This document shows, in pieces, positions 4,621 to 42,251 of a stretch of DNA of 64,000 nt. Each line of letters opens with the position of its first letter. Position 1 is the first letter of the stretch. The stretch covers positions 840,857 to 904,856 of the forward strand of contig OZ244590.1 in NCBI GenBank assembly GCA_965218205.1, written 5' to 3'. The translations under genes and the position numbers were made by a program. Under the pieces are notes generated by a model that worked only from the letters and a program-made list of their open reading frames with translations, made no database searches and was not told where the DNA came from. The DNA is from Spirochaetia bacterium. GTDB taxonomy: Bacteria > Spirochaetota > Spirochaetia > WTKD01 > G963693115.

Positions 4621-7600
4621 ATGAAAACTGTACGTATTTGTTTATCAGCTATCATGTTAATAGCTGGTGCTATTGTTCTCACTTTTTTGGTTGTTAATAC
4701 ACAAGATGTAAAAAATAGTATAGGCAATTTTTTACTGTCTAGCTATTCCTTTATGGGTTACACTGTACCTCTTTTTTTCTTTTGGCTATTCTATATTATC
4801 ATGAGAAAAGATTCTGTATTACGTTCAGTGACATGGCCCTTGTTTGCATTGATTCCTTTCTTTTTCTTTAGCTTATCGTTTCGTACTTTCTTGTGGAGTG
4901 CAGGAGCAACATTGCCTCCTTTTTGGGCAGTAACACAGTTGTTTGGTCAAAGTGGAGCGGGAGTATTTTGGGTAGTGTTAGGAACAAGCACTGTATTAGC
5001 ACTGTCTCTATTGTATTATATATCAAGTGCAAGAGCTATAGTGCAACAAAATTCGTTACAGTACAATGAAAATATCACTCCTTATGCTCGATACCAAAAA
5101 AATCCTATTCTTACACAAAAAATAACTGCTCAGCAGTATAGTCCTACAACAGTATCTTCACAATCTATGTATCATCATGAGAGTGTTCATGATACCGCTC
5201 TTAAGAATGAAGCTCCTGCTGTTGCCTTTACTAAAAGAGAAGTTTCTCCTATAGATGCTTCTCAAGAGAGAGGCAATGAACAAAAGGATATGCATTTACA
5301 ATATGCTTCATATCCAACAGGGCTAGAAACAGAGAGAAATGAAGAAATACCCCTTTCAAGAAATGATTCTCGGTATATTCTTTTCTTTCATAAAGATAAC
5401 TCTGTACGTAAACAGTTATATTATACTGAATACGAACGTGAGCTTTTACAGGATCGTATTCCTATAGGAGTAGAAGGATTTACTAATGTTCCTAAAGATT
5501 CTTCTGTGCAAGAAAAGAAGCATACTATTACTACTGCAAGTGAACCACGCAATAGTATAGCCTCTAACAGTAGTAGACTGTTGTCGAAGCATGACACTGA
5601 CAATAGTAATGCACAAGAGGGAGCAAGAGGAGAGTCAAGGACTGCTGTGCTGGATCGTGTATCTCATGAAAATGAAGTGTTTAGTAATGATGAAGTTGAT
5701 ATTTTTGATATACATACTACAGATACCCTTATAGAAGCAAACAACAATAATGATGAGAATGCTTTTTTACAATTAGATGAAAATGATGAAATGCTTGCTT
5801 ATCAGAAAGAGTTTGAGACTGAAGAGTTAGAGTATGCACTAGATGATACTGATTTTGATGGGTATTTTGATGAATCTATATCTGATGCCGATAATTCTCG
5901 TATGCAACAAGATAAACAAGCACCTGTATTTGTAATAGAGGATAGTCATAAAAAGCAGGATGTATATGAAGATGAAGGAGTGCATACTAAAGAATCTATA
6001 CATAAAGAGTTAGATGAGATAGTGGAAAAAAAGCTAAAGATGCAACAGCAAGAAAATGCTGATGTTTCGAAAGAGCAATCAGTGTCTCCTTCTTTACAGA
6101 AAAATAATACTATAGTGAATGCACAGCAGGCTACGGAAGATGCCCATATATCCCATACACAAAGTGAAGAAAGTAACAAAACAGGAGATAATGATACTTT
6201 TGCTGATATTAGTGCTGATACTATTAACAAGGGAGACATACCAATATCTGAGTCTTTTAGCAGAAAGAGTGGCACTATGCTTACAAAAGAACATATTGTA
6301 GATGCAAGTGAGACTGATTCAAATGCACCTATAGATATGAAAAAAAAAACCACTAAAACAGCCGCTTCCTCTTCACAGTTAAAGAAATGTAAAAAGAAGT
6401 ACTTTATTCCAATATCTGGAGTCTTAAATCCTCCAATACAAGTATCATCTTTAGATACTTCTGCTTTACAAGAAATATCGCAACGACTTGAAGTAACATT
6501 ACAAGAGTTTAGTATTCAAGCAAAAGTTGTATCTGTGTGTAGAGGACCAGTAGTAACATTGTTTGAAATAGTACCTGCATCAGGAGTGAGGGTACGTCGT
6601 ATTGTTGAGCTGAGTGATAATATTGCATTGCGTTTAGCGGCTCCAAGTATACGTATTGTGGCTCCTATTCCTGGGAAAGAAGCGGTAGGTATTGAGGTCC
6701 CAAATAAAAACAGTGATATTGTGAGTTTTTCTGAACTTATATCTCAAAGTGAGTTTCATAATAAAAATTTTGTGTTGCCAATAGCACTTGGTAAAAGTAT
6801 TCTTGCAAAAACAGTTGTTGTTGATCTTGCAAAAACTCCTCATATGCTTATTGCTGGTGCTACTGGGAGCGGTAAATCAGTGTGTGTTAACTCTATTATT
6901 TGTTCGCTCCTGTATAGTTGTGAACCTGAAAATGTCAAACTTATTCTTATTGATCCTAAGATTGTTGAGTTGAGTTTTTATAATGATATTCCTCACTTGC
7001 TTACTCCCGTAATAAGTGATCCTGTTAAGTCAGTAAAAGTATTGCATTGGTGTGTAGAGGAAATGGAACGAAGATATGCTATGCTTGAACAGTATAATGT
7101 AAGAGAAATAGAAAGCTATAACAAGAAAATTTATATGCATAATCCTAATGCACAAAAGATGAGCTATATAGTTATTATCATAGACGAATTTGCTGATTTA
7201 ATGATGACAAGCGGTAAGGAAATAGAAACGCTTGTATCGCGCATTACGGCTAAATCAAGAGCTATAGGGATACATCTTGTTATTGCTACTCAGAGACCAT
7301 CGACTGATGTTATTACTGGACTTATTAAATCTAATGTTCCTACTCGTATATCGTTTATGGTTGCCAGTAAAATAGATTCTCGGATTATACTTGATGTAAA
7401 CGGTGCAGAAAAATTGCTTGGAAAAGGAGATATGCTCTATTCTTCGGCACAACATCCTTTTCCTGATAGATTACAAGGAGCATATCTTGAAGAGGGAGAA
7501 GTAGAGCGGGTGGTAGAACAAGTAAAGCAAATAGGAGGAAGTCCACAATATATGGATGAATCTCTATTTGAACAAGATAAACAAGAAGGAGAAGGCATTG

Positions 7601-7794
7601 GAGGGGTAGATGATTTATTATGGGATCAGGCAATAGAAGAGGTTATACAAAGCAGAAGGGCTTCTGCGTCTCATTTACAACGGAGATTTAAGATAGGGTA
7701 TAATAGAGCAGCAAGGCTTATTGATGATATGGAATACAAGGGGATTATTGGTCCACAACAAGGAGGAAAACAACGAGAAGTACTTATTGCATGA
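4621..7794 (+). CDS. ftsK: DNA translocase FtsK.
   Basis: N-terminal multi-TM domain, a long acidic low-complexity linker, a motor domain with Walker A GATGSGKS and Walker B IIIDEFADL, and a C-terminal gamma winged-helix (SASHLQRRFKIGYNRAARLID). Confidence 0.9.
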   Translation: MKTVRICLSAIMLIAGAIVLTFLVVNTQDVKNSIGNFLLSSYSFMGYTVPLFFFWLFYIIMRKDSVLRSVTWPLFALIPFFFFSLSFRTFLWSAGATLPPFWAVTQLFGQSGAGVFWVVLGTSTVLALSLLYYISSARAIVQQNSLQYNENITPYARYQKNPILTQKITAQQYSPTTVSSQSMYHHESVHDTALKNEAPAVAFTKREVSPIDASQERGNEQKDMHLQYASYPTGLETERNEEIPLSRNDSRYILFFHKDNSVRKQLYYTEYERELLQDRIPIGVEGFTNVPKDSSVQEKKHTITTASEPRNSIASNSSRLLSKHDTDNSNAQEGARGESRTAVLDRVSHENEVFSNDEVDIFDIHTTDTLIEANNNNDENAFLQLDENDEMLAYQKEFETEELEYALDDTDFDGYFDESISDADNSRMQQDKQAPVFVIEDSHKKQDVYEDEGVHTKESIHKELDEIVEKKLKMQQQENADVSKEQSVSPSLQKNNTIVNAQQATEDAHISHTQSEESNKTGDNDTFADISADTINKGDIPISESFSRKSGTMLTKEHIVDASETDSNAPIDMKKKTTKTAASSSQLKKCKKKYFIPISGVLNPPIQVSSLDTSALQEISQRLEVTLQEFSIQAKVVSVCRGPVVTLFEIVPASGVRVRRIVELSDNIALRLAAPSIRIVAPIPGKEAVGIEVPNKNSDIVSFSELISQSEFHNKNFVLPIALGKSILAKTVVVDLAKTPHMLIAGATGSGKSVCVNSIICSLLYSCEPENVKLILIDPKIVELSFYNDIPHLLTPVISDPVKSVKVLHWCVEEMERRYAMLEQYNVREIESYNKKIYMHNPNAQKMSYIVIIIDEFADLMMTSGKEIETLVSRITAKSRAIGIHLVIATQRPSTDVITGLIKSNVPTRISFMVASKIDSRIILDVNGAEKLLGKGDMLYSSAQHPFPDRLQGAYLEEGEVERVVEQVKQIGGSPQYMDESLFEQDKQEGEGIGGVDDLLWDQAIEEVIQSRRASASHLQRRFKIGYNRAARLIDDMEYKGIIGPQQGGKQREVLIA

Positions 7795-35120: not shown

Positions 35121-35579
35121 GTGAGAATGCAAAGAGGACTTTATGATGTCATTGATTTTTCAAAAAGGGTATTGGTAGATATTCCTTTTGGTATCACAAA
35201 TCTAAAATTACAAAAATTAATGTACTTTATCTATGGGACCTATTATTGCGAAACAGATAAGGAATTATTTAATGAAAGACCACAAGCATGGGATTATGGT
35301 CCTGTATTTCCTAAAGTCTTTTATAAATACAGAAGCAGTGCTGGTGGAGATATAGATAATACTCACATTTTTTCTGAACTAGAAATTGACGATAAGAAAG
35401 TAAGAAATATAAAAGAGGCAGTGCTAAACCAATTAGCCGATAAATCTGATTCTAAGTTAATTGGTATGACACATATAGATAATGCTGCTTGGAGTCGTGT
35501 CTATAAACCTGGGGTAAGAGGCATACTTTTAGATCTAAAGGATATTAAGAAGGATTTTGCTAAATATGTCAGAAAATGA
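35121..35579 (+). CDS. Panacea-domain (DUF4065) protein, a putative PanA-type antitoxin.
   Basis: KLQKLMYFIYGTYY...FNERPQAWDYGPVFPKVFYKY closely matches the Panacea/DUF4065 core (KLQKLLYF...F.AW.YGPV.P.VY). Confidence 0.7.
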   Translation: MRMQRGLYDVIDFSKRVLVDIPFGITNLKLQKLMYFIYGTYYCETDKELFNERPQAWDYGPVFPKVFYKYRSSAGGDIDNTHIFSELEIDDKKVRNIKEAVLNQLADKSDSKLIGMTHIDNAAWSRVYKPGVRGILLDLKDIKKDFAKYVRK

Positions 35580-35928
35580 ATCAGAAGATACATTAGAATA
35601 TGATTACAATGATCCACAAGTTCAAGAAAAAAATAAAGACGATAATAGAGAACAAGAGTTAGAGAAATTAAGAGAAAAAGTAAATCAACTAGAAGCTGAA
35701 AGACAAAAATTAGCTGCATTAAGTTCAACATATATAAGTATTATTGTGATTGGAAGTGCTTTGCTTTTTAATATCTATATATTTCATAATTTTAATTTCA
35801 ATATAGTGGGATCTATTATTATAGGGTTAATTGAGGTGATAGCACTGCTTATAATAGCAAAAATGTATAAGATAAGCGTCATCAATAATCTGTGGGAAGA
35901 AATTACATCGCTTTTTAAGAAACGATAA
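35566..35928 (+). CDS. Small membrane protein (acidic N-terminus, coiled coil, two TM helices), a putative PanT-like toxin.
   Basis: The ATG at 35566 overlaps the 3' end of the upstream Panacea gene by 14 nt; the ORF track uses TTG at 35557. C-terminal hydrophobic helices: YISIIVIGSALLFNIYIF...IVGSIIIGLIEVIALLIIA. Confidence 0.5.
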   Translation: MSENESEDTLEYDYNDPQVQEKNKDDNREQELEKLREKVNQLEAERQKLAALSSTYISIIVIGSALLFNIYIFHNFNFNIVGSIIIGLIEVIALLIIAKMYKISVINNLWEEITSLFKKR

Positions 35929-36027
35929 AAAATAACAATACTTACATCAGCGTTCTCCTTTTTTGCATGTAATGTTTGAATTTACATGTATGTAAGCCTT
36001 AAAAGTGCAAAAAATTCTCATTTTTAC

Positions 36028-36059
36028 TTGATTTTTTTTTTTTTTTTTTCTTTTACAAT
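36028..36059 (+). promoter_or_regulatory. Candidate sigma-70-type promoter (TTGATT, 20-nt spacer, TACAAT) whose spacer is a T18 homopolymer.
   Basis: TTGATT at 36028-36033 and TACAAT at 36054-36059, about 40 nt upstream of the first dynamin-like gene start. Confidence 0.3.
36032..36049. repeat. Homopolymeric T18 tract.
   Basis: 18 consecutive T residues read directly from the sequence. Confidence 0.95.
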
Positions 36060-36099
36060 AAAGTAAGTTATAGAAACAAATATAAAGAGGCATAATAAT

Positions 36100-37797
36100 A
36101 TGAGAAAAACATATCTCCATTTTTTACAAGAAATGGAAAAAGAATTACAAACGATTGATTATGATACCCAAAAGGTACGTGATTTACAACAGTCCATAGA
36201 ATCGAAAGAGCTATTGCTGCCAGTGATAGGGCAGTTTAGCTCTGGGAAAAGTACGCTCCTCAACTCGTTTATGGGGAGAGATATACTGCCAGTGGGCATT
36301 ACGCCTGAGACAGCACTGGCATCAGAGCTGAGATATGCAAGTGATGAAAGAATAGAGGCTATCAAAAAAGATGGGGGAGTCACAACATTTTCAATAGACG
36401 AAATAGAAAAGATAAAGGAAAGAGCAAAAGAGTTTTTGTATCTTACGTTTTTTATCAATAGTAATGTTGTACGTGATATTGCTCCGTTAATCCTTGTTGA
36501 TATGCCAGGCTTTAGTGCAGCCAATGAGTTTCACCAACAGGCTATTATGGAATATCTCAACAAAGGAGTGCATTATATCTGTCTTATCAGTGTTGAAGAG
36601 GGAACTATTCAAAAATCTATGGAAATACAGCTGAGGGATGTTAAAGAGTTTGAAAGAAAATTTTCAGTATTTTTAAGCAAGTGTAATCTCCGTTCTCCAG
36701 AGGAATCAAAGGAAATAGCCACTAATATACAAGAACAGCTCGAAGATAATTTTGACGAACATATCTCTGTTGTGCCAATAGATGACAATGGAGGCGAAAG
36801 TCTTGGTACAGTCATGCAAGAGATACATATTTCTGAGCTTGAGAAGCAAGTATTTTTCTCAGGAGTCGAAGCATTATATAGAGATACTTTAGGGAGCATC
36901 AATACAGAAATAGCATCTCTCACAAAAAGCAAAGAACAGAACGATGATGCCATTACAGCACTCAAAGAAAGTGTAGCAAAGATTGAACAAAAACGTGACC
37001 AGCTTATGAATGATGCTCGCAATGCCTACACAGAGCAACATGCCCGTCAGATTATTGAAGCAGTAGGCTCTGATCTTTCAAGCAGTGTAGAGCAGTTTGT
37101 ATCTATTGCAATGTCAGGAAACTCTGATGAGATGTCACGACAAATATCGGAGGTAGCACGTTCCTCCTTAATTTCAAAAGTGAAAGAAGTTATGACTACC
37201 ATAAGCAATAGTGTTATTGATACATTTCAACTTAGCATACGGGGTATTGAGACGAATGTATCGGGCTATACTTCTAATGTTTCATTGCTTGAGAATCTTA
37301 CAGATACAGTAAAAGGGAGAATGTCAGGTATTGAACAGGGCATGACGAATATGGTAGCTAAACGTCAAGAACAAGAAGCTAAAGGTAGAATGTATAGATC
37401 TATTACAACTGTTCTAGGACTTACAACTAAATTTGTTGTTCCAGCAGTAGAAATTTTAATTATATTTTTGCCAGATATATTGAATAGTCTTTTTAAGAAA
37501 TCGCGAGAAGAAAAACAAAGAGAACAAATCAGATCTACATTGCTCACACAGACATTTCCATCAATAAAAAGAGAAATAGCAACTAAAGTAGAATCGTTAT
37601 TGGAAGAGCAAACAAAAAATGTAATACAAGGCATTGGTACTCAGTATCAGGAATTGTTGGAACAAAAAAGCAAAGAGATTGAAAAAGCAGAGGAAGAAAA
37701 AAATAAAAAAATACAGGATATTGAACAGGTAATAGCTACAAAAAAAGAATGTGTGGCACATATTACCTCTCTTGCAAACGAGAAATTATACGGATAA
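36100..37797 (+). CDS. Bacterial dynamin-like GTPase (LeoA/BDLP-like), paralogue 1.
   Basis: G1 GQFSSGKSTLLNS, G2 region GITPET, G3 DMPGF. A long helical stalk contains a hydrophobic paddle-like segment (ITTVLGLTTKFVVPAVEILIIFLP). Confidence 0.7.
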   Translation: MRKTYLHFLQEMEKELQTIDYDTQKVRDLQQSIESKELLLPVIGQFSSGKSTLLNSFMGRDILPVGITPETALASELRYASDERIEAIKKDGGVTTFSIDEIEKIKERAKEFLYLTFFINSNVVRDIAPLILVDMPGFSAANEFHQQAIMEYLNKGVHYICLISVEEGTIQKSMEIQLRDVKEFERKFSVFLSKCNLRSPEESKEIATNIQEQLEDNFDEHISVVPIDDNGGESLGTVMQEIHISELEKQVFFSGVEALYRDTLGSINTEIASLTKSKEQNDDAITALKESVAKIEQKRDQLMNDARNAYTEQHARQIIEAVGSDLSSSVEQFVSIAMSGNSDEMSRQISEVARSSLISKVKEVMTTISNSVIDTFQLSIRGIETNVSGYTSNVSLLENLTDTVKGRMSGIEQGMTNMVAKRQEQEAKGRMYRSITTVLGLTTKFVVPAVEILIIFLPDILNSLFKKSREEKQREQIRSTLLTQTFPSIKREIATKVESLLEEQTKNVIQGIGTQYQELLEQKSKEIEKAEEEKNKKIQDIEQVIATKKECVAHITSLANEKLYG

Positions 37798-37839
37798 CAA
37801 GAAGAAAAAACAATACTAACTATTAAAAGAGGTATATAT

Positions 37840-40026
37840 ATGAATAAAGAAGAATTATTGACAAAGCTAAAAGGTATTGAAGCTATTGTTAATAGCAATC
37901 ATACTGTTATTGGAAAGGATGCAGAATATCTAGCAGATGACTGTGGCATAGAAGAATCATCGAAAATACAAGATGCTATGAAAGATACTGAATACAAAGG
38001 GCGTCTATTAAAAATTGGTATCATAGGCAGGGTAAAGGCAGGAAAATCTTCATTATTAAATTCACTTATCTTTGAAGGAAAGGATATTCTCCCAAAGGCA
38101 GCCACTCCCATGACTGCCAATCTCACTGTGCTGTCCTATGGTGAGAGGAATGCAGCAGAAATAGAATATTTTAGTTCTGAGGATAGAGAAGATATTAAAA
38201 AGAAACATGACATATACGAAAAAAGAATGAATGATTTAATAGAACAATACCAACAGGAACATAAAGAAAAGCAAAAAGAAGAGCCAGCTGACAAAGAAAG
38301 GATAGAACGCAGAGCAAAGCGAGAATTAAAAGGCAGTATTGAAGAAGCCTCGTATGATCAGTACAAGCGTATGCAGAAGTCAGGGGTAGATCCAACTCGC
38401 CTTGAAGAGAAAACAACGCTAGAATCAAATACAATGAAGGAGCTAGCCAATGAGCTAATAGACTATGTCTCGGCTGAAGGAACATACATGCCATTTACAA
38501 GAAGTATCCGTGTGGCATTGCCGAATGAATTTCTCAAAGACATAGAAATTGTTGATACGCCTGGATTGAATGATCCCGTAGTATCAAGAGAAGAAAGAAC
38601 AAGGGAGCTATTACGGTACTGTGATGTTATTTTTATTGTGAGTCCTTCGGGGCAGTTTATGACCGAACAAGACATAGAATTATTACAGCGTATATCGACA
38701 AAAGAGGGACTGAGAGAGCTGTATGTGGTAGCAAGTCAGGTTGACACACAGCTATTTGGGAGCGAAAAAAAAGCTACAGTCATTGATGCTATTGATGGAC
38801 TTAGCAACATACTTGCTACAAGATTGCAGGAGGTAATTTCAAAACTAAAAGAACATTCCCCTGAGGTAGGAGATAAATTGAATAAGCTCATTGAAGATAA
38901 TCGTGAGCGTATTATATGCTGTTCGGGGATAGCACAATCCATTCTTTTGCGTATGTATGACTCTGGCACAATAACGGATGAAGGACAAACAACAGTATGG
39001 AATAATCTCAAACATCATTATCCAAATAATTTTTCTGATGGAGACAAAACTACATCGGAAGAAAGTCTAAAAGTACTTGCAAACATTACAAAAGTGGAAG
39101 AAAAAATACGATATGTACGCTCTCAAAAAGATAAGATTTTTGAAGACAAGCAGAAAGATTATATACATACAAAATCACAAGCACTGAGTAGCTATCAACA
39201 AGCACTCCTTGATGCAGTAGAGAAAAAAATACAAGAACTTCAAGAAGCTGATATAGATGAGCTGAAAAAGAAAAAAGAAAAACTACAAAAAATCAAAAGT
39301 ACAGGGGAAGGACAGCTTAGTGATACATTTAATAGTTCGGTACGCGATCTATATGTGTGTATGAAGAAGAAACTCAGTGATGGAATAGAAGTGCTATTTG
39401 GAGACACATCAAAAAGAGTAGGAGATGCTGAAGGATCTGTTACTGAAACATATACTACGGGATGGTGGTTGTGGAAAAAAGATCATCATAGAGATGTGAC
39501 AACAGTACGAGCAGGAGATATACGAGATAAGCTGGAAACTATAACATCAAAGATAAAATTAAAGATAGAAGATATAGCAAATGAGAAAATAAAAGCATGG
39601 AAGAGTAAAATACGAAAGGATATTTTATATTCTATTAGGGATGTAGTGGATGATAAATACTTGAATGATTTGACAATTAAAAGTAGTTTTCATGTTATTT
39701 TCTCAAAAATTGTAGACCCTAATATATCTTTTGAAGATAATAGTCTTAATTCTACTCTACAACAATCAGAGATACTTAAAGGATATGAAGCAAAGGAGTA
39801 TATGAAGGAAGCTAGCAACTATATAAATACATTTAAGAGTTCTGTCATTAAAAGAATAGAACAATATACAGAGCAACTAAAAAATACACTTTCCAAATAT
39901 GAAATTGGAACAGAAATATTTGCAAACATTGATGAGACTATCACTGCTTTTGAAAAAGATATAGAAAATAAAAAGGCGATATTAGCGCAATATGACACAA
40001 TAGAAAAAAATTTAAAGGAATTATAA
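37840..40026 (+). CDS. Bacterial dynamin-like GTPase, paralogue 2 (728 aa).
   Basis: G1 GRVKAGKSSLLNSLIF, G2 TPMTANLTVL, G3 DTPGLND; long coiled-coil stalk. Confidence 0.7.
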   Translation: MNKEELLTKLKGIEAIVNSNHTVIGKDAEYLADDCGIEESSKIQDAMKDTEYKGRLLKIGIIGRVKAGKSSLLNSLIFEGKDILPKAATPMTANLTVLSYGERNAAEIEYFSSEDREDIKKKHDIYEKRMNDLIEQYQQEHKEKQKEEPADKERIERRAKRELKGSIEEASYDQYKRMQKSGVDPTRLEEKTTLESNTMKELANELIDYVSAEGTYMPFTRSIRVALPNEFLKDIEIVDTPGLNDPVVSREERTRELLRYCDVIFIVSPSGQFMTEQDIELLQRISTKEGLRELYVVASQVDTQLFGSEKKATVIDAIDGLSNILATRLQEVISKLKEHSPEVGDKLNKLIEDNRERIICCSGIAQSILLRMYDSGTITDEGQTTVWNNLKHHYPNNFSDGDKTTSEESLKVLANITKVEEKIRYVRSQKDKIFEDKQKDYIHTKSQALSSYQQALLDAVEKKIQELQEADIDELKKKKEKLQKIKSTGEGQLSDTFNSSVRDLYVCMKKKLSDGIEVLFGDTSKRVGDAEGSVTETYTTGWWLWKKDHHRDVTTVRAGDIRDKLETITSKIKLKIEDIANEKIKAWKSKIRKDILYSIRDVVDDKYLNDLTIKSSFHVIFSKIVDPNISFEDNSLNSTLQQSEILKGYEAKEYMKEASNYINTFKSSVIKRIEQYTEQLKNTLSKYEIGTEIFANIDETITAFEKDIENKKAILAQYDTIEKNLKEL

Positions 40027-40029
40027 AAC

Positions 40030-41814
40030 ATGGACAATAAGAAACTACAAGGACTAGAAGAGAAATATACACAAGCAAAGGATAAACTAGACTTAGTAAG
40101 TGCTATTCTTAGTGCAGAACTCCCTAGCAATGCTGGATTGATTGAATTTAAGCGGTTATTACGTGAAGATTTTTTTAACTTTGCTAATGAAGAATCTTCT
40201 GTAGCAGAAGAGGCTGCATGTGTGTTAAGATTACAGAACATTGAAAAAGAGCTAGAACTTATGAGCAATTATTCTGCCATTATAGGAAAAACACGTATTG
40301 CTGTTGCAGGGGGCTTTAGCAGTGGAAAATCTAGTTTCTTAAATGGAATTATCCCTGATACAAACATTAAGCTCCCTACGGGAGTAAATCCTGTAACGGC
40401 AATTCCTACCTATATCATATCTCAACAATCAAAGAGTGCTGATACTACTATTACTGCTTTTTCCACAAAGGGAGGAAATACGCCTATCTCTAGTGAAATA
40501 TATAATAAATTATCCCATGATTTTATCAATTCACTAGGGTTTAATCTAAAAGATATTCTTGCGTTTATGGCAATAACCATTTCAGAAAAAAGATATGAGC
40601 ATATTTGCTTTATTGATACCCCTGGAATTTCAAATGATGAGTCTGATAAAAAAACAGCATCTGAGTTTGTGGAGCAATCTGATATAGTACTGTGGTGTAT
40701 TGATATTGAAAGAGGTACTGTGCCAAAAACAGATCTTGAATTTATAAGGGAACATTTAAAAGAAAAAACAATCTATGTAGTGATGAGCAAGGCTGATATA
40801 AAATCCTCTGAGGAAATTGAAGATATACTTGATGAGGTGGAAGAAATGCTCCACGATGAAGATATTGCCATAGAGGGAATCTCAGCCTGTAGTTTTCTTA
40901 ATGGCAAAGAGAAGACAACATCAAGAAAAATGAGTATATACGATTTTCTCACATTGTATAACAAAAACAGTACAAAGCATGAAAAAGAAACACTCATTGC
41001 TCGCGTAGAGGAGGTTTGTGATATATACGATAAGGCTATCAATGAAAGTATCAAATTTAGCAAAGAGCATAAGGAAGAATTACGCTCTATTGGGCTTGAT
41101 GTACTAGCATTAGGAGAGGAGGATGAGGAGGAATTAGCTAGAAAGAGGTTAAAGGCATTCAAGATGAAATTCGGAGAGGCAAGTAAGGCATTCAAGGTAT
41201 ACCAAGTGAAATTAAGAGAGACATTTGAGGCATTCAAGGTGAAAGTTGGAGAGGCATCAGGGGTGAAAGTTGGAGAGGTATTAGAATCAGCATTCAAGAT
41301 GAAATGGGGAGAGGCATTCGGACATGGGTTAGAGGCATTCGGAGAGGTGGTATCTGAGATAAAATTAAAAGAGGCATTTGAAGTATTAATAGGGGCATCT
41401 GAGGCATTAGGAGAGGCATTAGATGTATTTGAAGAGGTGGCATCTGACGCGAAATTAGAAGAGGCATCTGAGGCATTCGGAAAGGCATTTCAGGTATTTA
41501 AAGGAGCATTAGAGGCATTCGGAGATGCATCTGAGGCATTCGGAGAGGTGGTATCTGAGACGAAATTAGAAGATGCATTTGAAGAGGTGGCATTAGAGGC
41601 ATTAGGAGATGCATTAGAGAGATTTGGTGTGAAATTAAGCGAGATAGAAAAAAGCGGCAGTAACATCAGCATAAGCGATAAACTAAGAGAGATGCAGCAA
41701 AAATTTGATTATAAGAAACATCAAGGGCAATTAAAGAAATTAGCTACTATCAGAACACAAATGATAGGTGCTATACACGATACATTTAAGGCGAGTAATA
41801 GCAAAAAAAGATAA
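40030..41814 (+). CDS. Bacterial dynamin-like GTPase, paralogue 3, with a C-terminal EAFG/EALG tandem-repeat region.
   Basis: G1 GGFSSGKSSFLNGII, G3 DTPGISND, G4 VMSKAD. The start is 4 nt after the previous gene's stop. Confidence 0.7.
   Translation: MDNKKLQGLEEKYTQAKDKLDLVSAILSAELPSNAGLIEFKRLLREDFFNFANEESSVAEEAACVLRLQNIEKELELMSNYSAIIGKTRIAVAGGFSSGKSSFLNGIIPDTNIKLPTGVNPVTAIPTYIISQQSKSADTTITAFSTKGGNTPISSEIYNKLSHDFINSLGFNLKDILAFMAITISEKRYEHICFIDTPGISNDESDKKTASEFVEQSDIVLWCIDIERGTVPKTDLEFIREHLKEKTIYVVMSKADIKSSEEIEDILDEVEEMLHDEDIAIEGISACSFLNGKEKTTSRKMSIYDFLTLYNKNSTKHEKETLIARVEEVCDIYDKAINESIKFSKEHKEELRSIGLDVLALGEEDEEELARKRLKAFKMKFGEASKAFKVYQVKLRETFEAFKVKVGEASGVKVGEVLESAFKMKWGEAFGHGLEAFGEVVSEIKLKEAFEVLIGASEALGEALDVFEEVASDAKLEEASEAFGKAFQVFKGALEAFGDASEAFGEVVSETKLEDAFEEVALEALGDALERFGVKLSEIEKSGSNISISDKLREMQQKFDYKKHQGQLKKLATIRTQMIGAIHDTFKASNSKKR
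41150..41640 (+). repeat. Degenerate in-frame tandem repeat array (GAGGCATTCGGAGA-like units) inside the dynamin-like paralogue 3 CDS.
   Basis: Repeated DNA units encode repeated peptides such as EAFGEVVSE(I/T)KL(K/E)(E/D)AFE, EASEAFG and EALGDAL. Spurious minus-strand ORFs in the same interval are by-products. Confidence 0.75.
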
Positions 41815-41828
41815 ATATTATAATGTAT

Positions 41829-42251
41829 CTACATACACAACTCTTCGTATTCTAGCTGTTGTGGTGAATGTGTTGCTGCAGTTGCGGTGGGAGTTTTGAA
41901 TATAGTGTGTGTAAACACCTGTTGCCAGTGCAGTATTTTTGCTGTTTCTTTTGTTTTTTGTCTAAACAATGTGAGTGTTGCTTCGTATGTATCGCTAAGT
42001 TCATATATGAAGTATAAGTATATTTCGTATAGTTTTGATTGAGAGAAGTATGTATTGTTATATGCGGTATGTACTGCATCAATAGTATATAACAGACTGA
42101 GAAGATGCTGTACATGGTAGTCTATTTCTGACATATGTATAGTCTCTGTGTCGGTATGTGTTAAGTGTGTTTGTATGTGTGTACATAATTCAATAGCGGT
42201 ATGTACAGAGTCAATTTGTTTTTTAATACTATAGGCCTTAGTTTCTTGCAT
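41829..42251 (-). CDS. Hypothetical protein downstream of fliS (possible flagellar-associated protein).
   Basis: ORF only; the call rests on its position next to fliS. Confidence 0.3.
   Translation of the reverse strand: MQETKAYSIKKQIDSVHTAIELCTHIQTHLTHTDTETIHMSEIDYHVQHLLSLLYTIDAVHTAYNNTYFSQSKLYEIYLYFIYELSDTYEATLTLFRQKTKETAKILHWQQVFTHTIFKTPTATAATHSPQQLEYEELCM

What the first reader, a model, noticed from the sequence alone, without database searches (positions are those of the whole stretch)
36028..36059. T18 homopolymer forms the spacer of a putative promoter upstream of the dynamin-like operon (possible slipped-strand phase variation)
Eighteen consecutive T residues sit between a TTGATT -35-like hexamer and a TACAAT -10-like hexamer, giving a 20-nt spacer. 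Loss of about 3 T would give the optimal 17 nt. Homopolymer-length-dependent promoter spacing is a classical phase-variation mechanism, and here it would switch a putative defence/membrane-remodelling operon.
Basis: partly seen in the sequence, partly recalled or inferred. Interest (0 to 1): 0.55.

Follow-up and report, generated by a model that had tools for sequence, protein, structure and literature searches.

The report
Variable poly-T tract in dynamin-operon promoter
An 18-T run sits inside the likely promoter of an accessory three-gene dynamin-like operon in an uncultured spirochete, is 2 T shorter in the only sister genome, and probably tunes or switches the operon by slippage, a known kind of switch on an unusual target.

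Summary
T18 lies at 36032-36049, and its first two T complete the TTGATT hexamer. TTGATT and TACAAT are 20 nt apart. The run is the longest homopolymer in the window by far (next A10, T9).

It lies in the 171-nt gap before three dynamin-like genes. These form a roughly 6-kb accessory segment that a congeneric genome lacks.

The only other genome of the species is 94-98% identical. It keeps both hexamers but has T16, giving an 18-nt spacer. This is the only homopolymer indel in 14 kb of alignment.

No terminator hairpin, Rfam family or conserved minus-strand ORF explains the run.

The gene-for-gene orthologous cassette in Campylobacter rectus sits behind a poly-G of 9, 10, 11 or 13 G in contigs encoding the identical first protein. 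Another Campylobacter has T14 abutting a TATAAT.

Best reading (about 0.5): a slippage-prone promoter-spacer tract that sets operon output.

Not shown: the transcription start, heterogeneity within a population, or any effect on expression. Both genomes appear, from their contig names, to be long-read metagenome assemblies, so a 2-nt difference in such a run may be error. The 'defence' label is not supported by curated thresholds.

New member of a known kind; moderate interest.

The parts
36009..36027 (+). A6/T5-rich stretch (AAAAAATTCTCATTTTTAC) directly upstream of the -35-like hexamer; possible UP-like element
   Evidence: Sequence. Largely conserved in L001 (AAAAAACTCTCATTTTCAC). Function is inferred only.
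36028..36033 (+). -35-like hexamer TTGATT (4 of 6 matches to TTGACA; its last two T are the start of the run)
   Evidence: Identical in the sister genome L001 at 5930-5935.
36032..36049 (+). T18 homopolymer, the proposed slippage-prone tract
   Evidence: Longest homopolymer in the window. About 0.008 such runs are expected. It is T16 at the same place in L001/L036.
36034..36053 (+). 20-nt spacer (T16 + CTTT) between the two hexamers
   Evidence: The spacer is 18 nt in L001. It would be 17 nt with T15.
36054..36059 (+). -10-like hexamer TACAAT (5 of 6 matches; A2 and T6 present)
   Evidence: It reads TAAAAT in L001, also 5 of 6.
36065..36068 (+). Predicted transcription start, purines 6-9 nt after the -10 (inferred, not mapped)
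   Evidence: Inference from sigma-70 promoter geometry. It would give a 5' UTR of about 33-35 nt containing the ribosome-binding site.
36085..36091 (+). Shine-Dalgarno sequence AAAGAGG
   Evidence: Conserved in L001.
36100..37797 (+). DLP1, dynamin-like GTPase, 565 aa
   Evidence: Pfam Dynamin_N 66.6 bits against a cut-off of 27. P-loop GQFSSGKST. Similar to 5owv chain C at E = 8e-12.
37840..40026 (+). DLP2, dynamin-like GTPase, 728 aa
   Evidence: Pfam Dynamin_N 84.5 bits. Similar to 5owv chain A at E = 5e-14. 36% identical over its full length to C. rectus DLP2.
40030..41814 (+). DLP3, dynamin-like GTPase, 594 aa, with a 21-nt-repeat C-terminal region
   Evidence: Pfam Dynamin_N 62.8 bits. 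36% identical to C. coli DLP3 over residues 19-372. Tandem repeats at about 41140-41630.
35905..41893 (+). Accessory segment (promoter region with the T tract plus the three DLP genes), absent from the congeneric genome L082
   Evidence: blastn: window 35032-35904 matches L082 9336-10226 and window 41894-42400 matches L082 10283-10765. Only 56 nt lie between these in L082.
35987..36008 (+). 22-nt stretch present in the window but absent from L001, just upstream of the UP-like stretch
   Evidence: Pairwise alignment.
35121..35928 (+). Upstream neighbours: SocA/Panacea-domain antitoxin-like gene (35121-35579) overlapping a 123-aa hydrophobic ORF (35557-35928). No terminator follows, so this is a possible source of read-through transcription.
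   Evidence: Pfam SocA_Panacea 50 bits. NCBIfam SocA_antitoxin 71 bits, below its cut-off. No terminator-like site between 35928 and 36100.

Best explanation
The T run is a slippage-prone homopolymer that makes up most of the spacer of the sigma-70-type promoter of an accessory three-gene dynamin-like (DLP) cassette.

Proposed mechanism: slipped-strand mispairing during replication adds or removes T residues. Each change alters the distance between the -35-like TTGATT and the -10-like TA(C/A)AAT, and also their rotational phasing. The spacer is 20 nt with T18 (this genome, expected weak), 18 nt with T16 (sister genome, expected intermediate) and 17 nt with T15 (expected optimal). Different lineages or cells would therefore transcribe the cassette at different levels, as a graded or ON/OFF heritable and reversible switch.

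Shown here:
- The tract, its outlier length and its position.
- Conservation of the flanking hexamers and of the ribosome-binding site.
- A length difference between the two genomes of the species.
- The accessory nature of the cassette.
- The absence of terminator, RNA-family or ORF explanations.
- A length-polymorphic homopolymer in front of the orthologous cassette in Campylobacter rectus.

Inferred, not shown: that these hexamers are the promoter, the transcription start, slippage in vivo, and any effect of length on expression.
For: 1. T18 is the only homopolymer longer than 10 nt in 64 kb, where about 0.008 are expected.

2. It lies 50-68 nt upstream of the DLP1 ATG, in the only gap (171 nt) ahead of the operon. 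It has TTGATT on one side and TACAAT on the other, followed by AAAGAGG and the ATG. Random flanks give such bracketing in about 0.9% of trials.

3. The sister genome L001/L036 is 94-98% identical in flanking genes. It keeps TTGATT, has TAAAAT and T16, giving an 18-nt spacer. Flanking coding blocks align without gaps. Forty-two of 51 other runs in well-aligned context have the same length, and the other nine sit in ungapped alignment, so I infer they differ by substitution. The tract is therefore the only homopolymer indel in about 14 kb.

4. The congeneric L082 lacks window 35905-41893 altogether, so the cassette arrived, or was lost, together with this upstream region.

5. No GC-rich hairpin precedes the run. 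Fold z-scores are -0.48 and -0.19. There is no Rfam hit. The minus-strand ORF is broken in L001.

6. Independent parallels at orthologous cassettes (36% identity for each of the three genes):
- C. rectus contigs encoding the identical DLP1 carry G9, G10, G11 or G13 about 120 nt upstream. One scaffold has a gap exactly at the tract, and the flanks are otherwise nearly identical.
- Campylobacter sp. RUI582 has T14 abutting GAT-TATAAT.
- Runs of 11 or more occur upstream of 2 of 75 DLP1 homologues against 0 of 522 other genes in the same loci.

7. Precedents for the mechanism:
- T. pallidum tp0126 has a poly-G between -35 and -10 with an optimum at a 17-nt spacing, and N. meningitidis porA is similar (both described in PMC7864442).
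- The H. pylori sabA T tract ranges from T5 to T28 (PMC4081817).
Against: - No transcription start, read-level or expression data exist.
- Only two genomes carry the tract. Their contig names suggest long-read metagenome assemblies (my inference), in which runs of 16-18 are miscalled more often than the 6-10-nt runs I could check, so T18 against T16 could be error.
- The hexamer pair matches only 9 of 12 positions. Such matches are common in 34% G+C DNA.
- Because the spacer is all T, a TTTTTT pseudo -35 always sits 17 nt from the -10. Length changes might therefore matter less than the spacing model predicts.
- No terminator separates the operon from the upstream genes, so read-through could supply transcripts independently of this promoter.
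- The purity of the tract in both genomes is not informative at this divergence. About 1 substitution would be expected, by my own arithmetic.
- Excluding the query's own species, the enrichment of long runs upstream of DLP1 homologues is not significant (1 of 74 against 0 of 522, p = 0.12).
- C. coli and C. lari cassettes have no tract.
Confidence: 0.5

Rival explanations
1. The tract is a static T-rich promoter element. It would act as a rigid or curved poly(dA:dT) stretch, or as a -35-less T-rich upstream region, that raises promoter activity, like the T-rich regions and poly-T tracks of Borrelia lipoprotein promoters. Length differences between strains would be tolerated noise with no switching role.
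For: Spirochete precedent: T-rich regions (16-18 T in 20 positions) are needed for full activity of the Borrelia ospAB and vmp promoters, and poly-T tracks of 46 and 174 nt lie in the vlp expression-site promoter (PMC5565969, PMC2525819). In an all-T spacer a T-rich pseudo -35 always lies 17 nt from the -10. T14 abuts a perfect TATAAT in Campylobacter sp. RUI582.
Against: In Borrelia the T-rich region lies upstream of the -35. Here no well-spaced -35/-10 pair exists downstream of the run. TTTACA at 36052-36057 has its nearest acceptable -10 at 11 or 23 nt (my reading). The conserved TTGA immediately 5' of the run fits a -35 better. Runs of this length slip whatever their role, so some effect of length on output is hard to avoid.
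Confidence: 0.2
2. The tract has no function. It would be a run that grew by slippage in AT-rich intergenic DNA, with the operon transcribed by read-through from the upstream toxin-antitoxin or mre-rodA genes or from another start. The T18/T16 difference would be neutral drift or a homopolymer-calling error in long-read assemblies.
For: No terminator is predicted between 34935 and 36100. The hexamers match only 9 of 12 positions. Only two genomes carry the tract, both metagenome assemblies. L002, from the same species, shows frameshift errors at 2x coverage.
Against: No other run longer than 10 nt exists in 64 kb plus about 30 kb of relatives. Neutral growth therefore happened only here, exactly between promoter-like hexamers (about 1% by chance). 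Coding regions of both assemblies are free of frameshifts. A polymorphic homopolymer recurs upstream of the orthologous C. rectus cassette.
Confidence: 0.17
3. The U run is the tail of an intrinsic terminator, or a pause site, that ends transcription of the upstream SocA-like/123-aa gene pair.
For: The run lies 104 nt after the stop codon of the upstream ORF, on the same strand. A weak A-U-rich hairpin (about 36000-36029) precedes it in the window.
Against: The terminator scan finds nothing here. The fold is no better than shuffles (z = -0.48). The hairpin depends on the 22 nt that are absent from L001, whose fold has z = -0.19. There is no G+C-rich stem.
Confidence: 0.05
4. The tract acts in the RNA. 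In a read-through transcript a U18 stretch 36-53 nt upstream of the Shine-Dalgarno sequence would serve as a U-rich binding site for ribosomal protein S1 and enhance translation of DLP1.
For: Same strand and near the ribosome-binding site. No terminator lies upstream. U-rich enhancers are known (general knowledge).
Against: It requires a start upstream of the tract, for which there is no evidence. It does not explain the conserved flanking hexamers. This is speculation.
Confidence: 0.03

Closest known systems
Treponema pallidum tp0126 (OmpW homologue) and Neisseria meningitidis porA: homopolymer between -35 and -10
   Same: An uninterrupted homopolymer forms the promoter spacer, and output is best when the -35/-10 distance is 17 nt (PMC7864442). 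tp0126 is also in a spirochete.
   Different: Those tracts are poly-G of about 8-12 and control outer-membrane proteins of host-restricted pathogens. Variation and effect were measured there. Here the tract is poly-T of 16-18, in an uncultured organism known only from metagenome assemblies, ahead of cytoplasmic or membrane dynamin-like GTPases, and nothing has been measured.
Mycoplasma hyorhinis vlp promoters: poly-A tract in the spacer (my own knowledge of Citti and Wise 1995; not read here)
   Same: An A:T homopolymer of about 17-20 nt lies between -35 and -10, and one length is ON while others are OFF. This is the closest match in base type and length.
   Different: The vlp genes encode surface lipoproteins of a mollicute. 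Switching rates were measured there and not here.
Helicobacter pylori sabA T-tract rheostat
   Same: A poly-T tract of similar length (T5-T28, commonly T13-T19) in a promoter region gives graded, multiphasic output through slipped-strand mispairing. A-rich UP-like elements lie upstream (PMC4081817).
   Different: The sabA tract lies upstream of and adjacent to the -35, and works by re-phasing the UP-like elements relative to the core promoter. Here the tract lies downstream of the TTGA, inside the spacer, under the best hexamer assignment.
Borrelia T-rich extended promoters (ospAB, vmp) and the poly-T track of the vlp expression site
   Same: Spirochete promoters with very T-rich stretches or long poly-T runs that are needed for full activity (PMC5565969, PMC2525819).
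   Different: These lie upstream of the -35 and are described as enhancers, not as length switches. They control lipoprotein genes.
Poly-G tract upstream of the orthologous triple-DLP operon of Campylobacter rectus
   Same: The three-gene cassette is the same (567/745/617 aa; 36% identity to window DLP1 and DLP2). A homopolymer about 120 nt upstream of DLP1 varies in length (G9-G13) among contigs with the identical DLP1.
   Different: The tract is poly-G, preceded by an ATG (ATG-Gn-TAG). It probably lies in the 5' UTR or a tiny upstream ORF, downstream of TAAAAT boxes, and not in a promoter spacer. I found no paper that links dynamin-like genes to phase variation.

Membership tests
Transcriptional phase variation by a repeat in the promoter spacer (porA / tp0126 / vlp type) | A long uninterrupted simple repeat, well above the genome background | tested here: met
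   T18 against a maximum of 10 elsewhere in 64 kb. About 0.008 such runs are expected.
Transcriptional phase variation by a repeat in the promoter spacer (porA / tp0126 / vlp type) | The repeat lies between the -35 and -10 elements of the functional promoter of the regulated gene | tested here: inconclusive
   TTGATT-N20-TACAAT brackets the run and is kept as TTGATT-N18-TAAAAT in L001. The match is consensus-level only (9 of 12) and no transcription start has been mapped.
Transcriptional phase variation by a repeat in the promoter spacer (porA / tp0126 / vlp type) | Repeat number differs between strains while the flanks are conserved | tested here: met
   T18 against T16, the only homopolymer indel in about 14 kb of 94-98% identical sequence. 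Caveats: only two genomes, both metagenome assemblies, and calling error in a 16-18-nt run is not excluded.
Transcriptional phase variation by a repeat in the promoter spacer (porA / tp0126 / vlp type) | High-frequency, reversible length changes within a clonal population | not testable with these tools
   No reads or isolates are available. The window's own genome could not be looked up.
Transcriptional phase variation by a repeat in the promoter spacer (porA / tp0126 / vlp type) | Expression of the downstream gene changes with repeat number | not testable with these tools
   This needs reporter fusions or RNA measurements.
H. pylori-type T-tract rheostat | [quoted passage not shown] | tested here: not met
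   Under the best assignment the tract is 3' of TTGA, inside the spacer. An A6/T5 stretch lies upstream of the -35, not beyond the tract.
Borrelia T-rich extended promoter | A T-rich region upstream of a canonical -35/-10 pair | tested here: not met
   No -35/-10 pair with a 15-21-nt spacer exists downstream of the run. TTTACA at 36052 has candidate -10 hexamers only at 11 or 23 nt.
Intrinsic (Rho-independent) terminator | A G+C-rich hairpin immediately 5' of the U run | tested here: not met
   No terminator-like site. Only a weak A-U hairpin that is not conserved, with fold z-scores of -0.48 and -0.19.
Dynamin superfamily (bacterial dynamin-like proteins) | A Dynamin_N GTPase domain above the Pfam gathering score, with an intact P-loop | tested here: met
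   66.6, 84.5 and 62.8 bits against a cut-off of 27. GxxxxGKS motifs are seen in all three proteins.
Eleos / LeoABC anti-phage system; LeoA/HP0731, DynA and CrfC families | Match to the family profiles at curated thresholds | tested here: not met
   PADLOC LeoA/LeoBC hits are partial, E = 5e-4 to 2e-8, and DLP2 has none. NCBIfam LeoA scores 23 bits against a cut-off of 325, DynA 24 against 1600 and CrfC 17 against 1146.
Campylobacter jejuni DLP1/DLP2 pair (PDB 5owv) | Full-length sequence similarity to both chains | tested here: inconclusive
   Only the GTPase regions match. DLP2 matches chain A at 5e-14 and DLP1 matches chain C at 8e-12. DLP3 has no PDB match.

The most novel reading that the evidence does not exclude
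The horizontally spread three-gene dynamin-like cassette may be a contingency locus in several phyla. On this reading, unrelated hosts have independently placed it behind hypermutable homopolymers. The cases found here are T16-18 in the promoter spacer of this Spirochaetia species, T14 abutting the -10 in a Campylobacter sp., and G8-G13 in the leader of C. rectus and its relatives. That pattern would imply strong fluctuating selection on whether the cassette is expressed, for example a costly membrane-repair or anti-phage function that is bet-hedged in the way phase-variable restriction-modification systems are. It would also extend repeat-driven phase variation to an uncultured spirochete known only from metagenome assemblies and to a cytoplasmic or membrane machine instead of a surface antigen.
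Probability: 0.25. Interest if true: 0.65.

Novelty: new member of a known kind. Interest (0 to 1): 0.42.

Why it matters
Homopolymer-length switches in promoters are textbook biology for the surface antigens of host-adapted pathogens.

A poly-T spacer switch on a dynamin-like GTPase operon in an uncultured spirochete would widen both the hosts and the targets of phase variation. The polymorphic poly-G in front of the orthologous operon of Campylobacter rectus adds to this.

The function of multi-gene bacterial dynamin cassettes is largely unknown. Stochastic control would suggest that expression is beneficial only some of the time, as for anti-phage or envelope-stress systems.

C. rectus is cultivable, so it offers a direct experimental route to test this idea.

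Tried and rejected
1. Exact-protein look-ups of window DLP1, MreB, the 123-aa ORF, P0121 and P0242 found nothing retrievable. The window's own genome is a 2.36-Mb contig that carries the identical DLP1, but it could not be fetched, so there is no independent copy of the tract.

2. L002 is a third genome of the species at 2x coverage. It starts inside DLP1 and lacks the upstream region.

3. Two metagenome scans returned nothing: a codon-degenerate pattern for the 5' end of DLP1, and a pattern bracketing the tract. The protein searches show only three genomes of this species in the collections.

4. The T14-bearing Campylobacter sp. RUI582 DLP1 has no relative above 46% identity, so tract polymorphism could not be tested there.

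5. In C. coli and C. lari the 289-aa and 492-aa VWA genes upstream of the cassette looked like a frameshift switch. The DNA is identical and the difference is only in gene calling. These loci have no tracts.

6. Terminator reading rejected.

7. Known RNA family rejected. The only hit is a chance-level one, WsnRNA59 at E = 0.29.

8. The minus-strand 57-aa ORF running through the tract (a poly-Lys stretch) is rejected because it has stops in all frames in L001.

9. A mobile-element signature was sought. No meaningful direct or inverted repeats flank 35905-41893, and G+C content does not differ from the surroundings.

10. A survey of promoter-like hexamers upstream of other genes in the window gave no clear organism-specific spacer preference.

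Full report
**1. The observation**

Window 36028-36059 reads TTGATTTTTTTTTTTTTTTTTTCTTTTACAAT.
- The uninterrupted T run spans 36032-36049, 18 T. Its first two T are also the last two bases of the -35-like TTGATT (36028-36033).
- The -10-like TACAAT is at 36054-36059, so the spacer is 20 nt (T16 + CTTT).
- AAAGAGG (36085-36091) and the ATG at 36100 follow.

The run is a clear outlier.
- Every other homopolymer in the 64 kb is 10 nt or shorter.
- The window's own run-length decay, about 0.45 per added T, predicts about 0.008 runs of 18 or more.

The hexamers by themselves are unremarkable for 34% G+C DNA.
- They match 9 of 12 consensus positions.
- The consensus scan finds no excess of promoter-like sites here.
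- Bracketing of a T18 by a TTG-type hexamer and a 5-of-6 -10 hexamer arises in about 0.9% of random-flank trials. This test was designed after the fact.

**2. Context**

The window is chromosomal DNA. It carries dnaG, rpoD, mreB-mreC-(mreD)-PBP2-rodA, fliS, aroD/E and asnS/aspS-like genes.

Its closest relatives are MAGs labelled Spirochaetia.

Directly upstream of the tract lie a SocA/Panacea-domain gene and an overlapping 123-aa hydrophobic ORF, which may be a toxin-antitoxin pair.

Downstream lie three tightly packed genes of 565, 728 and 594 aa.
- Each has a Dynamin_N domain above the Pfam threshold and an intact P-loop.
- They resemble the C. jejuni DLP1/DLP2 pair (PDB 5owv) only in the GTPase region.
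- They fail the curated thresholds of the LeoA/HP0731, DynA and CrfC families. PADLOC gives only weak, partial LeoA/LeoBC hits.
- 'Dynamin-like' is therefore confirmed. 'Defence' is a possibility suggested by the literature (PMC8844932; bioRxiv 10.1101/2022.05.11.491447) and was not demonstrated here.

**3. Relatives**

The protein collections hold only three genomes of this species.
- The window's own 2.36-Mb contig has the identical DLP1, but it could not be retrieved.
- L001, which is the same record as L036 (CBDDCA010000004.1), is the sister genome.
- L002 is a 2x-coverage contig that starts inside DLP1.

L001 is 94-98% identical to the window across mreC-rodA and fliS-aroDE, and flanking coding blocks align without gaps. 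In the intergenic region:
- TTGATT is identical.
- The -10 reads TAAAAT.
- The ribosome-binding site is kept.
- The run is T16, giving an 18-nt spacer.
- A 22-nt stretch (window 35987-36008) is missing.

Of 51 other homopolymer runs in well-aligned context, 42 have the same length. The other nine sit in ungapped alignment, so I infer they differ by substitution. The tract is therefore the only homopolymer indel in about 14 kb.

A congeneric genome, L082 (RodA 80% identical), has the same gene order but lacks window 35905-41893. That segment comprises the tract region plus all three DLP genes, and only 56 nt stand in its place.

The cassette is therefore accessory. It is transcribed either from a promoter within 35929-36099 or by read-through from upstream.

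**4. Alternatives tested**

- Terminator: no terminator-like site. The RNA folds upstream of the run are no better than shuffles (z = -0.48 in the window, -0.19 in L001). The only hairpin near the run depends on the 22 nt that L001 lacks.
- Known RNA: no Rfam family.
- Minus-strand ORF: the 57-aa ORF through the tract is interrupted in every frame in L001.
- Mobile element: no repeats mark ends around the cassette, and its G+C content matches the flanks.
- T-rich region upstream of a downstream core promoter, as in Borrelia: this fits poorly, because no -35/-10 pair with a workable spacer lies 3' of the run.

**5. Parallels elsewhere**

The first gene belongs to a widely and patchily distributed family. 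After the two same-species relatives (90% and 95% identical), the next-best relatives are only about 43% identical. They come from Campylobacterota, Latescibacterota, Pseudomonas, Treponema and others.

In C. coli, C. lari and C. rectus the same three-gene architecture recurs (566-567, 735-745 and 617-621 aa). DLP2 and DLP3 are each about 36% identical to the window's proteins.

In 75 loci with enough upstream sequence, a run of 11 or more within 200 nt upstream of the DLP1 homologue occurs twice. One is T16 in the sister genome. The other is T14 in Campylobacter sp. RUI582, directly abutting GAT-TATAAT. The same measure gives 0 of 522 other upstream regions in those loci.
- Fisher p = 0.016 overall.
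- p = 0.12 once the query's own species is left out.

C. rectus is more telling. Nine contigs that encode the identical DLP1 (L087-L095) include the complete genome CP085962.1.
- They carry a poly-G about 120 nt upstream of the ATG, of length G13, G13, G11, G10, G10, G10, G11 and G9.
- The ninth scaffold is broken by Ns exactly at the tract.
- The surrounding 400 nt are almost invariant.
- Related uncultured Campylobacter genomes have G8 at the same site, and one lacks the tract.
- C. coli and C. lari have no tract.

I found no paper that links dynamin-like genes with phase variation.

**6. Mechanism**

The best-supported reading is that the T run is the spacer of the cassette's sigma-70-type promoter and changes length by replication slippage.
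- T18 gives a 20-nt spacer, T16 gives 18 nt, and T15 would give the optimal 17 nt.
- Each step also rotates the -35 relative to the -10 by about 35 degrees.
- Output should therefore differ between length variants. The window genome would be in a low state and the sister genome in a higher one.

This is how the poly-G tracts of T. pallidum tp0126 and N. meningitidis porA work (PMC7864442). It is also how, from my own knowledge, the poly-A tracts of M. hyorhinis vlp promoters work. The H. pylori sabA T tract shows that T runs of this size vary widely between strains and act as a rheostat (PMC4081817).

Steps shown: the anatomy, the conservation, the between-genome length difference, accessory status, exclusion of several rivals, and a polymorphic homopolymer at an orthologous operon.

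Steps inferred: promoter identity, the transcription start, slippage in vivo, and the dependence of expression on length.

**7. Caveats**

- Both tract-bearing genomes are metagenome assemblies. Their contig names (coverage plus an '_l' suffix) suggest long reads, which is my inference. Runs of 6-10 nt are evidently called well, since there are no frameshifts, but 16-18-nt runs are harder, so a 2-nt difference is weak evidence.
- Because the spacer is all T, RNA polymerase could use a T-rich pseudo -35 at 17 nt whatever the tract length. That would make the effect graded or small.
- Read-through from upstream genes is not excluded.

**8. Verdict**

- I put about 0.5 on a length-dependent promoter switch or rheostat, about 0.2 on a static T-rich promoter element, about 0.17 on no function or artefact, and less than 0.1 on terminator or RNA-level roles.
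- It is a new member of a known kind of switch.
- Its interest lies in the unusual target and host, and in the apparently recurrent coupling of this dynamin-like cassette to hypermutable homopolymers.

Noticed in passing
L087-L095 (Campylobacter rectus; e.g. L089 about 2381-2391, = CP085962.1), L029/L034 5910-5917: A poly-G tract lies about 120 nt upstream of the orthologous triple-DLP operon, in the context CCGATG-Gn-TAGCTC. It is G9, G10, G11 or G13 in contigs that encode the identical DLP1, and one scaffold is broken by Ns at the tract. Related uncultured Campylobacter genomes have G8, and L025 has none. The ATG in front of the tract opens a tiny upstream ORF whose length depends on n (my reading of the sequence). 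I found no report of this.
   Followed up: partly
L067 3072-3094 (Campylobacter sp. RUI582 MAG): T14 is directly followed by GAT-TATAAT, 75 nt upstream of the ATG of a DLP1 homologue. No close relatives exist in the protein collection, so length polymorphism could not be checked.
   Followed up: partly
L038 35-60 (Acinetobacter sp. MAG): TTG-T10-AACCAATT-TATAAT lies upstream of a DLP1 homologue. This is a shorter T run inside a promoter-like spacer of about 15 nt.
   Followed up: no
window 37199-37498, 39299-40225, 41108-41866: The DLP operon is mosaic between the two genomes of the species. These segments drop to 36-77% identity while the flanks are 94-98% identical. They correspond to a segment of DLP1, the distal part of DLP2 (about aa 480-700), and the N- and C-termini of DLP3. 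In L001, DLP3 is 499 aa with a different C-terminus, followed by small ORFs.
   Followed up: partly
window 41140-41630: The C-terminal part of DLP3 is built of degenerate 21-nt (7-aa) tandem repeats rich in G-E-A-F/L. This region is the most divergent from the sister genome.
   Followed up: no
window 35121-35928; L082 9372-10226: A SocA/Panacea-domain gene overlaps a 123-aa hydrophobic ORF, which may be a PanA-type toxin-antitoxin pair. It sits next to the DLP cassette. In the congeneric genome that lacks the cassette it appears broken into 122-, 40- and 68-aa ORFs.
   Followed up: partly
window 6340-6349: An A10 run lies inside the 1057-aa ORF 4621-7794, where it encodes KKK. It is the second-longest homopolymer in the window and a potential frameshift-prone site.
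   Followed up: no
window 35987-36008: A 22-nt insertion relative to the sister genome lies just upstream of the promoter-like region. It creates an inverted repeat (CTTACAT...ATGTAAG) that L001 lacks.
   Followed up: partly
L002 1-300: The third genome of the species (ERZ26696836, 1.98x coverage) ends about 150 nt downstream of the tract. It shows homopolymer frameshifts in DLP1 (A8 for A7), which illustrates the error mode that could also affect the tract-length calls.
   Followed up: partly
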